Assembly (NCBI GenBank): GCA_028826165.1
Contig: JAPDFW010000088.1
Span: 186,001-250,000, forward strand
Reading direction: 5' to 3'
Length of the DNA stretch: 64,000 nucleotides
DNA from: Anaeramoeba ignava BMAN
Lineage: Eukaryota; Protista; Anaeramoebae
In this document: positions 35,901 through 41,412 of the stretch, one piece after another
Layout: every line of letters begins with the position of its first letter
Numbering within the stretch: the first letter of the stretch is position 1
Program-made: the position numbers and the translations under genes
Notes under the pieces: model-generated
Databases searched by the model: none
Seen by the model: the letters and a program-made list of their open reading frames with translations, nothing else
Told to the model about the DNA's origin: nothing

Positions 35901-38900
35901 CACATATAAAGGCTGAAAACGGAGATTTGCGCATGAAAAGCATCACTTTAGCATTAATGGTTCGTCGTGTTTTAAAGGCAAATAAAGACATCAATTTTCT
36001 TGATGATAGAGACTATTATGGAAATAAACGGTTGGAACTTACTGGTCCTTTACTTGCCATTCTGTTTGATGATTTGTTCAAGAAATTCAATACTGAGTTG
36101 TCTCGTATTGCTGATGCTTCTTTATCCAAAAGAAACTTGGCTGCTCAGTTTGATATTGTTAAGTCTATTCGTATTGATACAATTACTAATGGTTTGGTTA
36201 GAGCTATTGCAACCGGTAATTGGACTCTGAAAAGATTTAAAATGGCAAGAGCTGGGATTACTCAAGTTTTATCTCGTTTATCTTACATTTCTTGTTTGGG
36301 TAAAAAAATTTCCAAAAAAAAAAAAATTTCAAATCATTTCAAATTAAATTCAAATTTAAATTAAAAAAAAAAGGAATGGTAACTAGAATCTCTTCACAAT
36401 TTGAAAAAACAAGAAAAATAAGTGGTCCAAGATCTCTACAAACAAGTCAGTTCGGGATTTTGTGTTGCTCCAAAGATACATCAATTTTAATGGATGATAA
36501 AATAAACACATGCTTTATAGATGATCTTTATTACAATCAAAAAAAAGACATTTCAATAATCACAGTAAACCCAAAATCCCTTGAAGAAAAAACATCCAAA
36601 ATCACGGAAAAGCAGCATTTTTATATCCATTCGTTAAAACAAAAACTATTCACAGTTAAAACGGTTACTGATAGAGAAATTTGTGTAACAGAAGATCATC
36701 CATTTCTCACAAAAAGGGGATTTGTCCAAGCCCAGCATTTAACTCACAATGATTGTGTTTGTATTAGACACACTTTGGAAAATCTTTCGAAAACTCAAAA
36801 CAAAACACATTTCGCTATCACTTCTGAAAAACAAATGCAAATCCAATTTCCAAATATTAACTTGAATTTGATAATCCAAAAACTTGATCAAATTAAATTG
36901 CTTCCTTTGGATAGTCAAAATGAAAAATTATCCATTTTAACAAGATTATTGGGAACTTTAATCTCCCGCGGAAATATCATATCGAAACAATTTAACCTAA
37001 AAATAAACCAACAAGTCGATCAAAATGATATCCATTTCATTTTTTGCATGGATTCAAGTCAAGATGCCTCTCAATTAATATCCGATTGCAAATCAATTGG
37101 ATTTTCAGATTCAATTTGGATCAAAGAAAAGGAAAAATCGAAAAATTTTCAACGAAGTTCCAACATCATTTGCAAAAATAACGCCTTGATTTATCTTTTA
37201 TTATCTCTTTTACATCCATTGGATATTATAAATATTCAGCAGAAAAATTCGCAATTTGCACAAATACCGAAATGGATTTTAGAATCAAGCAAGTTAATTA
37301 AAAGAGAATGGCTTTCGAGCGTTCATGGCTATTTTGTGGAAAGTGATCTGGTTCAAAATGGGATATTCAAAAGAAATTGTGCAAGCCAAAGTTTTGCGAA
37401 AAATTTCATCTTACAACAAATACTTCTTTTCAGAGAATTTGGGATTGAAACAACAGAAGAAATGTATTCATCAAATTTATTATTTCTTCCAAAAGATTCT
37501 TTCTTAAATTACTGGAAAAAAATTGGTTTCCGTTATTGCTTCTTTGCAGAACAGAATGCGAGAATAACGGGAGAGTTTTTGCTTTATTATAGACATTTAA
37601 AAAGCAAGAGTGAAGTCACAGAAGAAAAAGCAATTGAAAAATTCCGTTTAAATTTTAAATTTGAAAACGGGATGATTTTTGTCCCCGTTGACAGCATATC
37701 TCCTGAAACAAAGGTGAAGGAGGTTTATGATCTAACAACACAAAGCATCAATCACACATTTGTTGCAAATGGGTTTGTGACGCATAATTGCCCTTCTGAC
37801 ACTCCTGAGGGCGAGAGTTGCGGACTTGTGAAAAATCTTGCGCTTCTTTCTCACATCACAACAGACTCTGAAGAAGAGCCTGTGTTTAGAGCAGCCCTTA
37901 TGCTAGGCATTGAAGAAGTTGATTTTCTTTCGGGAGAAGAATTATCATCAGGAGAAGCAACTGTAATCTTTCTTAATGGGCGTATAATTGGGATACATCG
38001 AAAACCGCTTATTTTTATATCGCAATTTCGCATTTTGAGAAGATGGGCTCAAATTGCCGAATTTGTTTCAATTTTCTTCAACGAGAAGAAGAACTTTATC
38101 GAGATATCATGTGATGGAGGAAGATTATGCCGTCCTCTTATCATAGTTGATAAAAACGGAAAGCCAAGAATCACAAAGGAGCATATTCAACAGTTGTCAC
38201 AACCACTTGAAAATATTGAAGATCGCCAGAACTTTTTTGGCAAAGTGAAATATTCGAAATCAATATTCAAATATTTTCTTTCGAATGGGATACTTGAATA
38301 TTTGGATGTGAATGAAGAAAGTAATTGCAATATTGCTCTTTATGAAAACTTAATAATTCCTGGTGTAACAACTCATCTTGAAATTGAACCATTGACTATT
38401 CTTGGGATTTGTGCAGGAATCATCCCTTTTCCTCATCATAATCAATCTCCTAGAAACACTTATCAATGCGCTATGGGCAAGCAAGCTATGAGTATTTTGG
38501 CGGAAAATGAATTGACTCGTGTTGATTCCGCTCTTTATTATTTGTGTTATCCTCAAAAGCCTTTAGTAAGAACTAAGGCTTCCGATTTATTTAGATTTGA
38601 TCGTTTACCTGCTGGTCAGAATGCGATGATTGCTGTTATGAGTTATTCTGGTAGAAAATCAAAAATTTAATTTAGAATCTTAATCAAAAATTTAAATCAA
38701 AAATTTAATTTAAAATCAAAAATTAATTTAAAATCAAAAATTTAAATTAAAATCAAAAATTAAATTAAAAATTTAATTTAAAATCAAAAATTTAAAATCA
38801 AAAATTTAATTTAAAATTTAATTTAAAATTTAATTTAAAATCAAAAATTAAGGTTATGATATCGAAGATGCAGTCATTTTAAATAAATCTTCTTTGGATC

Positions 38901-41412
38901 TCGGTTACGGTCGTTGTATGATTTATAGAAGATATAGTGCACAAATATCACAATATCCAAATCAATCATTCGATAAATTGGTTTCACCATCAGAACTAGA
39001 GCTACAAAGAGGAATCAAATTTAAATTACTTGATGAAGATGGAATTTGTCAACCAGGATTGAAAATATCAAATGGACAAGTAATGTTCAACAAACAAGTC
39101 CCAAAAAGTACAACAGACACTATTGTAAATGTTCAAAAAATTGAACACAAATCATCTCCAGTTATTTACAAATCAACCGAAGGAGTTATTGATAGAGTCA
39201 TCTTGACAAACAATAAATCAACACAATTATTAGTTAAATCTGTAATTAGAAGCACAAGAAGACCTGAATTGGGAGATAAATTCTGTTACGATCCAAAAAC
39301 TCAAATTCTCACAGAAAAAATAATGGTTGATTCCCTTCAAAAATTAAATTATTCCCATAAAGTCGCTACTTTGGTTGATTTTGAAAACATCTTTTTATCA
39401 ACATCTATTCGCATTTTCAAATATAATCATTTCGGATTAATGTATTTTCTTCGAAATAATGCTGTCGATCAATTGGTCACTTTGAATCATAAAATATTCG
39501 CCAAAATCCCAACAAAAACACATTTTGATTTGGAAAATATTGAAGATGTTTTCGGATTGGAAAAATGTAGAGTTTAAAAACAGCTCAAAATTTAAACTCA
39601 TCTCAAATTAACTTTTAAATTAGACGGAATCATTCAATCACAAAATTTCAAAAGTTGGATCATTTTCTTTGCTTTTTGGATTCAATCTTTTGTTTCTTCT
39701 CAAAACAAAAGGATGAAAAAATTGATAATTAATTTAAATTATTCGGAATCAATCCGCAAATTATTTTTGTCAACTTGTCAAAAACTTGATTTGAAAATCA
39801 ACAACGAATTTGGAAAAAAGGAAATTATTATTGAAAATGGAAAGTTATTCAAATATTTTAAATCATTAAGAAATGAAAAATGGAAACAATTCCCAAAAAT
39901 CCCAAATTGGATTTGGAAACTAAACACTGAATATTCTCAACTTCTTTTAAAAACAATACTTAAACTTGAAGAACATAAAACTGATGATAATTATACTAAC
40001 AAATTTAGAAAAAGCAAAGAGCATTGGAGCTTCAAAACACAGAACAAAATGTTTCTAAATTTTCTTCAGCAATTATCTCTGCATTCAGAATTATCAGCAG
40101 ATATTGAAAAAAGGAAGGAAAAAAAGGAAAAAATTTACAATATCAAAATTTTCATTGGATCAAGCATTGGATTGAAATCACTTGAAAAAACGGAGAATCA
40201 AAAAGAAAGAGAAGAGGGATTAATTGAGTATTCAGGGAAAGTTTATTCATGCGAAACAACAAGCGGGGTTATTTATGTGAGAAGAAAAGGAAAATCTTTC
40301 TGGGGAGGCAACTCAAGTCGACATGGACAGAAGGGAGTTTGCGGCTTGATTGTTGAGAAGGAAGATCTGCCTTTCTCAGAAAACTGGAGTAGTTCGGATA
40401 TGATCATGAATCCCCATGGTTTTCCTAGTCGAATGACAGTTGGGAAAATGATAGAATTGTTGGGCTCAAAATGTGCACTTTGTGATGGCAATTTGAGAGA
40501 TGGAACAGTTTTTTCAGGAAATAGAAGTCTTGATTTAATGAACGTACTCATTGAATATGGATACTCGTTTTCTGGGGGAAGGATGTTCTTTATTCAGGCG
40601 TTAATGGATTGCCTCTTTCTGCTTATATTTTCTTTTGGTCCTGTTTATTATCAAAAATTAAAGCATATGGTTATGGATAAGATATTTGCACGTTCAAAGT
40701 ATTTTTAAGAACCTTTTTCAATTGGAAAAATCCTCAAAAGAAAATCCTCTTCATTTTTGATGTGGATTATTTATTGGTTTTGATTTTTGAAATATTTATT
40801 TTTGTTATTTTTTCTTTCTTGATTTTAGTATGGGACCTCGAACAGCCTTAACTAGACAACCAACAGAGGGGAGAGCAAGAGGTGGTGGTTTGCGATTAGG
40901 TGAGATGGAGAGAGATTGTTTAGTTGGATATGGATCAAGTTTACTTTTGCAAGAACGATTAATGTATTCTTCTGATTTATTTATTGTTACTGTTTGTGGA
41001 GTAAGTAATAAATTTTTATCCGATTTTCAAATCAATAATTTTAATTTTAATTTTAATTTTAATTTTAATTTTAATTTTAATTTTAATTTTAATTTTAATT
41101 TTAATTTTTGAATTAAATTTTAATTTTAATTTTAATATTAATTTTAATTTTAATTTTAATTTTTGAATTAAATTTTAATTTTAATTTTAATTTTAATTTT
41201 AATTTTAATTTTAATTTAAGAAATGTGGATCTTTGGGTTATGATGGTTGGTGTCCATATTGTAAATCTTATGAAAATTGTACCAAACTTGAAATGCCTTA
41301 TGCTTGCAAATTATTATTTCAAGAACTTCAATCAATGAATATTGCTCCAAAATTAAAATTAACTGATTTAAATGACGTATTTGATTTAAATCAACCAAAT
41401 GAAGTTAAATAG
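33000..41412 (+). CDS. RPC2: RNA polymerase III second-largest subunit, containing two inteins
   Basis: Exons 33000-33299, 34447-34760, 35569-36299, 36374-38650, 38853-~40698, 40829-41000 and 41221-41412. VEEKWKLLP...[11 protein letters not shown] is RPC2-type. Also [83 protein letters not shown] and [16 protein letters not shown]. Confidence 0.97.
36463..37788 (+). mobile_element. Intein 1 in RPC2 (442 aa, degenerate LAGLIDADG region)
   Basis: In-frame insertion splitting [13 protein letters not shown]. Starts CCSKDTSIL; block B TEDHPFLT; ends [22 protein letters not shown] followed by Cys+1. Endonuclease remnants [27 protein letters not shown] and KIGFRYC. Confidence 0.96.
39284..40312 (+). 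mobile_element. Intein 2 in RPC2 (~343 aa, ends Gly-Asn, Ser+1; internal indels in this assembly)
   Basis: Insertion splitting [14 protein letters not shown]. Starts [10 protein letters not shown]; block B VTLNHKIF; ends [28 protein letters not shown]. The length of 1029 nt keeps the frame overall, but there is a stop at 39575 among compensating indels. Confidence 0.93.

What the first reader, a model, noticed from the sequence alone, without database searches (positions are those of the whole stretch)
36463..40312. Two dissimilar inteins in one nuclear RNA polymerase III subunit
Seen: intein 1 (Cys...His-Asn|Cys) at [11 protein letters not shown] and intein 2 (Cys...Gly-Asn|Ser) at [12 protein letters not shown]. 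Neither contains an intron. Known: nuclear inteins are rare in eukaryotes, have been reported in second-largest RNA polymerase subunits, and are unusually abundant in Anaeramoeba, so these may already be catalogued. Inference: two independent invasions; both styles recall inteins of large DNA viruses, which are plausible vectors.
Basis: partly seen in the sequence, partly recalled or inferred. Interest (0 to 1): 0.7.

Follow-up and report, generated by a model that had tools for sequence, protein, structure and literature searches.

The report
Two inteins in amoeba polymerase III
A core subunit of this amoeba's RNA polymerase III carries two unrelated, already catalogued protein inserts that stay in the spliced message and are predicted to cut themselves out of the protein; one likely came from giant viruses, while the source of the other is unresolved.

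Summary
Real, but already catalogued. The window's exons translate exactly to NCBI KAJ5071462.1, 'intein-containing RPC2' of Anaeramoeba ignava. Gallot-Lavallee 2023 covers this genome's 103 inteins, RPC2 included. Both inserts (442 and 343 aa) have class 1 intein ends and a predicted Hint+LAGLIDADG fold. Their endonucleases are likely dead. Intron-free contigs and a transcriptome ORF keep both, so they are not removed at the RNA level.

Intein 2 has two stop codons in the window and a 57-nt 'intron' in the NCBI model. Four runs, the transcript ORF and a second gene copy read it open, so these are likely assembly errors.

Two independent invasions are supported, but the viral link holds only for intein 2. 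It groups with giant-virus RPB2 inteins that sit one residue downstream, which suggests a one-codon slide. Intein 1 scores best against same-site Asgard archaeal RpoB inteins. In trees it pairs (98/98) with this species' MROH1 intein, outside both the Asgard and main viral clades; long-branch attraction is not excluded, so its donor is unresolved.

The parts
33000..41412 (+). [quoted passage not shown] NCBI-model exons: 33000-33299, 34447-34760, 35569-36299, 36374-38650, 38853-39566, 39624-40698, 40829-41000, 41221-41412; 38853-40698 is likely one true exon
   Evidence: These exons translate to exactly P0001/KAJ5071462.1; PDB best hit RPC2
36463..37788 (+). Intein 1, 442 aa, Cys1...His-Asn|Cys, inserted before the residue matching yeast Rpb2 523; degenerate LAGLIDADG domain
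   Evidence: PF14890; fold; catalytic Asp replaced by Arg169 and Phe291
39284..40312 (+). Intein 2, 343 aa, Cys1...Gly-Asn|Ser, inserted before the residue matching yeast Rpb2 981; degenerate LAGLIDADG domain
   Evidence: fold; block C acidic residue replaced by Ser135
39567..39623 (+). False 57-nt intron of the NCBI model, covering two TAA (39575-77, 39593-95) that arise from small indels in this assembly copy
   Evidence: no joint but indels at 39561 and 39613 in 4 of 4 runs; P0045 and P0046 are open
39319..39404 (+). Two frame-neutral indel clusters in the N-terminal splicing domain of intein 2 (likely assembly errors)
   Evidence: table 4 (4 of 4 runs); columns 1363-1370 and 1384-1392
40380..40633 (+). 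Two frame-neutral indel clusters that scramble conserved C-extein motifs (likely assembly errors)
   Evidence: table 4; columns 1718-1722 and 1783-1801
36300..36373 (+). 74-nt spliceosomal intron ending 89 nt before intein 1
   Evidence: Skipped in contigs of X1 and X3 that then continue into intein 1; GT-AG ends
38651..38852 (+). 202-nt AT-rich spliceosomal intron between the two inteins
   Evidence: Skipped in X1 and X3; X2 and X4 contigs run on into it
40699..40828 (+). 130-nt spliceosomal intron after intein 2
   Evidence: Loose ends of X1 and X3 at 40698 continue with the next exon

Best explanation
The gene encodes the RNA polymerase III subunit RPC2 with two unrelated in-frame inserts that stay in the spliced transcript, are predicted to remove themselves from the protein as class 1 inteins, and carry likely dead homing endonucleases. 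Shown: identity of the host, boundaries, retention in intron-free contigs, Cys1, block B Thr-x-x-His, terminal Asn and a +1 Cys or Ser. Inferred from established intein chemistry: N-S shift at Cys1, transfer to the +1 Cys or Ser, Asn cyclisation and ligation, giving a 1157-aa subunit from a 1942-aa precursor. Both sites lie in conserved parts near the active centre, so splicing is likely essential and keeps the splicing domains intact while the endonucleases decay. Intein 2 likely derives from giant-virus RPB2 inteins of the neighbouring site, one residue downstream, and shifted by one codon. Intein 1 belongs to another family, spread over archaea, giant viruses and many host proteins; it likely shares an ancestor with the same species' MROH1 intein, and its outside donor is unresolved.
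For: Host. Exact match to the NCBI intein-containing RPC2. Retention in RNA: one 4136-nt X3 contig runs from 36747 through the rest of intein 1 and all of intein 2 while skipping two introns; X1 and X3 contigs skip the 74-nt intron and cross the intein 1 N-junction; a complete 1942-aa transcriptome ORF holds both inserts. Splicing residues: C1, H79, D423, N442 invariant in 16 alleles; C1, T66, H69, G342 invariant in 14. Folds match full-length inteins TliVMA, PI-SceI and PI-PfuI. Endonuclease decay: intein 1 has Arg where 48 of 53 relatives have Asp and Phe where 44 of 53 have Asp; intein 2 has Ser where 34 of 40 have Glu or Asp. Intein 2 origin: 23 of its 29 best relatives sit at the +1 site; its two end signatures occur together in 21 of 56 +1-site inteins and 0 of 50 same-site inteins; the quick tree places it in that group at 97 SH-aLRT. 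Pairing with the MROH1 intein: 98/98 and 97.7 after Dayhoff-6 recoding.
Against: Protein splicing of these two inteins was not tested; the paper's main text reports proteomic proof only for A. flamelloides RPB2 inteins and in vitro proof for another A. ignava intein. X1 and X3 are not on record as RNA; I infer it from the skipped introns. Both Anaeramoeba family-1 inteins are long branches (1.43 and 1.95) and only 30% identical. Placed singly, they attach at different, weakly supported spots. Trees that split them are rejected marginally or not at all (p-AU 0.048-0.078). Intein 2 is also a long branch (2.47), and its careful tree did not finish. The 'virus-like' label of unnamed hosts rests on best matches to IMG/VR proteins, with no eukaryotic RPB2 or RPA2 among the references; only two hosts were checked against PDB (687 and 710 bits to Pol II RPB2).
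Confidence: 0.88

Rival explanations
1. Intein 1 comes from Asgard archaea, by inheritance or by transfer from a co-occurring archaeon, as a true same-site allele.
For: The 16 top-scoring inteins (11 clusters, 140-110 bits) are archaeal RpoB alleles at the same site, several named Heimdall-, Hel-, Thor- or Borrarchaeota. The best IMG/VR intein scores 94. Intein 1 has the long form at two N-terminal indels, as the archaeal alleles do, while 13 of 13 main-clade viral alleles are short at both.
Against: Starred branches exclude it from the Asgard clade (100/99) and from the larger archaea-rich clade (98/93). Forcing it with Asgard costs 24-33 lnL units alone (p-AU 0.048 and 0.078) and 17-21 with the MROH1 intein (0.085 and 0.052). 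Asgard alleles have short branches, which inflates pairwise scores. The long indel forms may be ancestral and also occur in some virus-like rows. Only 8 of 400 genomes of that phylum carry the junction, so inheritance needs many losses.
Confidence: 0.15
2. Both inteins were delivered by giant viruses; intein 1 came from an unsampled viral lineage.
For: Same-site inteins are common in IMG/VR RPB2 genes (89 extracted, with repeats across scans). Intein 1 plus the MROH1 intein as sister to the main viral clade is not rejected (p-AU 0.51 and 0.37). Its nearest row by tree path is an unnamed papain-family intein. The paper argues for viral spread in general.
Against: No viral intein ranks among the top 16; intein 1 is outside the 100/100 viral clade and differs from it at two indels.
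Confidence: 0.4
3. The window's copy is really broken: a pseudogene, or a copy that needs a real 57-nt intron inside intein 2.
For: Two TAA in frame, and a GT-AG segment of 57 nt that removes them. All five indel clusters are frame-neutral, which random errors would seldom give. Two NCBI copies exist on one contig, a 3-SNP bubble shows two variants, and contigs can drop variants.
Against: No contig of 4 runs matches the window's reading of intein 2 or shows the joint; X2, X3 and X4 each span the stretch in one piece with the indels. Most indels are in or beside homopolymer runs. Two clusters wreck conserved polymerase motifs, and the other copy has its own separate defect.
Confidence: 0.06
4. 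The inserts are removed at the RNA level.
For: None found.
Against: Intron-free contigs and the transcriptome ORF keep both inserts; both are in frame with intein ends and fold.
Confidence: 0.01

Closest known systems
Anaeramoeba ignava intein-containing RPC2, KAJ5071462.1 and KAJ5071483.1; Gallot-Lavallee et al. 2023 (PMC10710043)
   Same: The window's exons give KAJ5071462.1 letter for letter. The paper reports 103 inteins, 15 proteins with two or more, and an endonuclease-lacking RPC2 intein (cluster 17) shared with A. flamelloides in a tree where viral inteins are interspersed.
   Different: The NCBI model has a false intron and four scrambled stretches. The main text does not mention Asgard, MROH or HEAT. 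Dataset S1 and the SI Appendix could not be read and may already cover these points.
Eukaryotic RNA polymerase second-subunit inteins, Goodwin et al. 2006 (PMC1635734)
   Same: Same host family, conserved sites and Gly-Asn ends (Pno RPA2, Cre RPB2). From the spacing of their alignment positions (843, 853, 1195, 1516, 1664, 1696) I infer that site 1 is RPB2-c (Bde RPB2) and that site 2 is RPO-a or its neighbour (Phytophthora provirus, EhV163).
   Different: Those are one intein per gene; Ddi RPC2 lies 10 residues after site 1. The site assignment was not checked against their sequences.
Giant-virus RPB2 inteins at the +1 site (GDKFx|SRxGQKG)
   Same: Best relatives of intein 2, up to 33% identity, with shared C(Y/F)D start and GVIYV end.
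   Different: Inserted one residue later (C-extein resumes at yeast 982, against 981); most keep the catalytic acids.
Asgard archaeal RpoB inteins (WGKI|CPNETPEG)
   Same: Same site, highest pairwise scores to intein 1, shared long indel forms.
   Different: About 500 aa, with an extra segment before the C-terminal splicing region; most keep both Asp; a separate clade in trees.
A. ignava MROH1 intein, KAJ5066965.1
   Same: Same family and length (440 aa), both Asp lost, the same Phe at block E, sister to intein 1 in trees.
   Different: Unrelated HEAT-repeat host and unrelated site (ITL|CSR); only 30% identical.

Membership tests
Class 1 intein | In-frame insert absent from host homologues | tested here: met
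   PDB RPC2/RPB2 chains align in three stretches around the inserts; the extein is 1157 aa
Class 1 intein | Cys/Ser at position 1, terminal Asn, Cys/Ser/Thr at +1 | tested here: met
   C...HN|C and C...GN|S
Class 1 intein | Block B Thr-x-x-His | tested here: met
   TEDH79 and TLNH69
Class 1 intein | Penultimate His (usual, not universal) | tested here: inconclusive
   Present in intein 1; Gly in intein 2, as in its family and in published Gly-Asn inteins
Class 1 intein | Hint fold | tested here: met
   Predicted models (pLDDT 82) match intein structures. Model 2 was built on the window's error-bearing reading. Pfam detects intein 1 only
Class 1 intein | Retained in mature mRNA | tested here: met
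   the runs are inferred to be RNA from skipped introns
Class 1 intein | Self-excision with extein ligation | not testable with these tools
   Needs a reporter assay or proteomics
Mobile LAGLIDADG homing intein | LAGLIDADG fold between the splicing halves | tested here: met
   Matches to I-DmoI and PI-SceI
Mobile LAGLIDADG homing intein | Catalytic acidic residues in blocks C and E | tested here: not met
   Intein 1: Arg169 and Phe291. Intein 2: Ser135 in block C; block E Glu229 kept but flanking Gly lost
RNA polymerase III subunit RPC2 | Closer to RPC2 than to RPB2, RPA2, archaeal or viral subunits | tested here: met
   1392 and 1254 bits against at most 717
Main giant-virus clade at site 1 | Nests in the clade and has the short indel forms | tested here: not met
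   a sister position is not rejected
Asgard RpoB site-1 clade | Nests in or is sister to the clade | tested here: inconclusive
   Excluded in the best tree; p-AU 0.048-0.085
Giant-virus +1-site clade (intein 2) | Nests in the clade and shares its end signatures | tested here: met
   long branch, quick tree only
Giant-virus +1-site clade (intein 2) | Same insertion site | tested here: not met
   One residue upstream

The most novel reading that the evidence does not exclude
Intein 1 is a relic of an Asgard-archaeal RpoB intein at the same site, kept in or passed to a eukaryotic Pol III gene without a virus, and its lineage then jumped within the genome into an unrelated HEAT-repeat gene (MROH1); intein 2 records a one-codon slide during capture from a giant virus.
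Probability: 0.1. Interest if true: 0.7.

Novelty: already known. Interest (0 to 1): 0.3.

Why it matters
The inteins themselves are catalogued, so the finding as stated adds little. Three details may be useful to specialists. First, a public gene model has a false intron inside an intein. Second, the same polymerase site carries inteins in Asgard and DPANN archaea, giant viruses and a eukaryote, which gives a test set for cross-domain homing; I did not find this in print (paper searches, listings only). Third, there are two candidate breaches of the allelic rule: a one-codon slide and an RPC2-MROH1 pair. If they hold, they show how inteins colonise new sites, which is an open question.

Tried and rejected
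No own genome is held, so other Anaeramoeba inteins could not be added; no A. flamelloides RPC2 turned up in the three word-based searches. No RNA holder was listed; this is not evidence either way. A single-sequence viral scan with intein 1 found 0 relatives among 23 pattern matches; the alignment scan worked. A metagenome scan for Pol III-type site-1 junctions gave 10 matches and no extracted intein. Of 31 GTDB matches, 17 held a site-1 intein: 8 Asgard, 8 Woese/Nanoarchaeota-type, 1 Micrarchaeota; 14 yielded none. The +1-site junction pattern was found in 0 of 400 genomes of the Asgard phylum (exact pattern, incomplete genomes). Whole-protein ranks are inflated by hosts with several inteins, so I re-scored single inteins. 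The treekit AU test did not finish and was replaced by short IQ-TREE searches on 32 of 54 rows. The careful tree for intein 2 did not finish. The profile comparison was dominated by exteins and says nothing about the inteins. One block E count used the wrong column and was redone. An 'intron inside an intein' was considered and rejected. Paper searches for intein+maestro and for adjacent-site shifts gave nothing relevant in the listings.
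Full report
OBSERVATION. Bases 36463-37788 encode 442 aa from Cys to His-Asn, between GIL and CPSDTPEG. Bases 39284-40312 encode 343 codons from Cys to Gly-Asn, between GDKF and SSRHGQKG. The host scores 1392 bits to human RPC2, 717 to RPB2 and 374 to RPA2. The inserts fall before the residues matching yeast Rpb2 523 and 981. They share no significant similarity, and no further member of either family was found in the window.

ALREADY CATALOGUED. The window's exons translate to exactly P0001, which NCBI names 'intein-containing DNA-directed RNA polymerase iii subunit rpc2 precursor [Anaeramoeba ignava]', KAJ5071462.1. 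Its cluster has 3 members: this one, a second copy on a contig of the same length (KAJ5071483.1), and a complete 1942-aa EukProt ORF with a transcript-style name. PMC10710043 reports 103 inteins in this species and an endonuclease-lacking RPC2 intein shared with A. flamelloides, in cluster 17, among viral inteins. I read parts 1-5 of 6 of that paper, passages, part 1 of one supplement and a search of two supplements. Dataset S1, Dataset S2 and the SI Appendix could not be read and bear directly on novelty. Of PMC1635734 I read parts 1-3 of 8, passages and the figures and tables. Of PMC5784728 I read passages only. Other papers were seen only as search listings.

THE BREAK IN INTEIN 2. The window has two in-frame TAA in intein 2, and the NCBI model removes them with a 57-nt intron. 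Contigs of 4 runs (at most 2 samples) show 12 listed small indels against the window in 38853-40700, 11 of them in all four runs, and no joint. P0045 and P0046 agree with each other across these places and restore conserved motifs. Most indels are in or beside homopolymer runs. I read this as assembly error. One thing is unexplained: all five clusters are frame-neutral. Only contigs were available, and they can drop a variant.

NOT REMOVED AS RNA. Contigs of X1 and X3 skip the spliceosomal introns and keep the inserts. A 4136-nt X3 record covers 36747-38652, then 38853-40698, then continues into the next exon. Other X1 and X3 records skip the 74-nt intron and cross the intein 1 N-junction. X2 and X4 run on into an intron. 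None of the runs is on record as RNA; that is inferred.

HOW THEY WORK. Both have Cys1, block B TxxH, a terminal Asn and a +1 nucleophile, conserved in their relatives. Predicted models match full-length Hint+LAGLIDADG inteins. Class 1 splicing follows from established chemistry and was not tested. It would give a 1157-aa subunit, close to the 1133 and 1149 aa of human and yeast RPC2. The endonucleases have lost catalytic acids: Arg169 where 48 of 53 relatives have Asp, Phe291 where 44 of 53 have Asp, and Ser135 where 34 of 40 have Glu or Asp. They are therefore likely immobile now.

ORIGIN OF INTEIN 2. In a set of 121 family members (208 before removing near-copies), its 29 best matches are IMG/VR or virus-like RPB2 inteins, 23 of them inserted one residue downstream. 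Its C(Y/F)D start and GVIYV end occur together in 21 of 56 downstream-site inteins and 0 of 50 same-site inteins. FastTree (96) and a quick C20 tree on 41 rows (97) place it in the downstream-site group. It is a long branch, and the careful run did not finish. Labels for the two sites change several times across the tree, and P0053 and P0059 carry both inteins in tandem, so sliding recurs. No cellular eukaryotic allele was available to me. That this is the paper's cluster 17 intein is my inference, from its family and from a bacterial-type rpoB member (P0041).

ORIGIN OF INTEIN 1. Scored singly, its top 16 matches (11 clusters) are archaeal RpoB inteins at the same site, at 140-110 bits. Those of these hosts that were scanned pass NCBI's archaeal RpoB cut-off. 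The junction occurs in 8 of 400 genomes of the phylum of Borrarchaeum. The best IMG/VR intein scores 94. Intein 1 has the long forms at two indels where 13 of 13 main-clade viral alleles are short. Trees disagree with the scores. In the careful C20 tree (54 rows chosen from 215), it is sister to the A. ignava MROH1 intein (98/98; names), outside the Asgard clade (100/99) and outside the main viral clade (100/100). The pair persists in FastTree and after Dayhoff-6 recoding (97.7). Against the pair: both are long branches, they attach at different weak spots when placed alone, and rare shared residues number 11, against 10 for a virus-like row. AU tests on 32 rows gave these p-values (LG, then C20): intein 1 with Asgard 0.048 and 0.078; the pair with Asgard 0.085 and 0.052; intein 1 with the viral clade 0.052 and 0.060; the pair with the viral clade 0.51 and 0.37. 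The donor is unresolved.

VERDICT. A correct observation of known elements. Two invasions are supported; the viral link is supported for one intein. The possible additions are a corrected gene model, Asgard alleles at site 1, a candidate RPC2-MROH1 jump and a one-codon slide. Interest 0.3; already known.

Noticed in passing
window 36657-36776: Two variants differing at 3 bases appear at similar depth in all 4 runs, and NCBI has two near-identical RPC2 copies, each with its own defect: alleles or a recent duplication.
   Followed up: partly
window 39319-40633: All five indel clusters against the runs are frame-neutral, which random error would seldom give; the cause is unknown.
   Followed up: partly
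proteins P0093, P0120, P0142, P0153, P0118: Relatives of intein 1 sit in a papain-family protease, ribosomal protein S12, a pyridine nucleotide-disulphide oxidoreductase (before a CxxxxC motif), eRF1 and Rpb1.
   Followed up: no
proteins P0150, P0154, P0158, P0189, P0191: Family-1 inteins directly before a W|CxxC motif; the hosts look like thioredoxins from the recalled motif and were not scanned.
   Followed up: no
L074 (RpoB ORF); proteins P0053, P0059: Closely spaced double inteins: sites 10 residues apart in a Promethearchaeota RpoB, and one residue apart in two virus-like RPB2 proteins.
   Followed up: no
L064, L072, L078, L079, L081, L082, L085, L087, L088: Woesearchaeota, Nanoarchaeota and Micrarchaeota RpoB genes also carry site-1 inteins and form their own clade.
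   Followed up: partly
window 2218-3516(-), 43842-44396(+), 52460-54160(-), 59912-61531(-): Neighbouring genes with Pfam hits to MutS_I, Hyccin, CwfJ plus metallophosphoesterase, and UCH (5 of 13 ORFs scanned had a hit).
   Followed up: no
window 33300-34446 and 34761-35568: Introns made almost wholly of A and T repeats (GC 3.2% and 0.7%).
   Followed up: no
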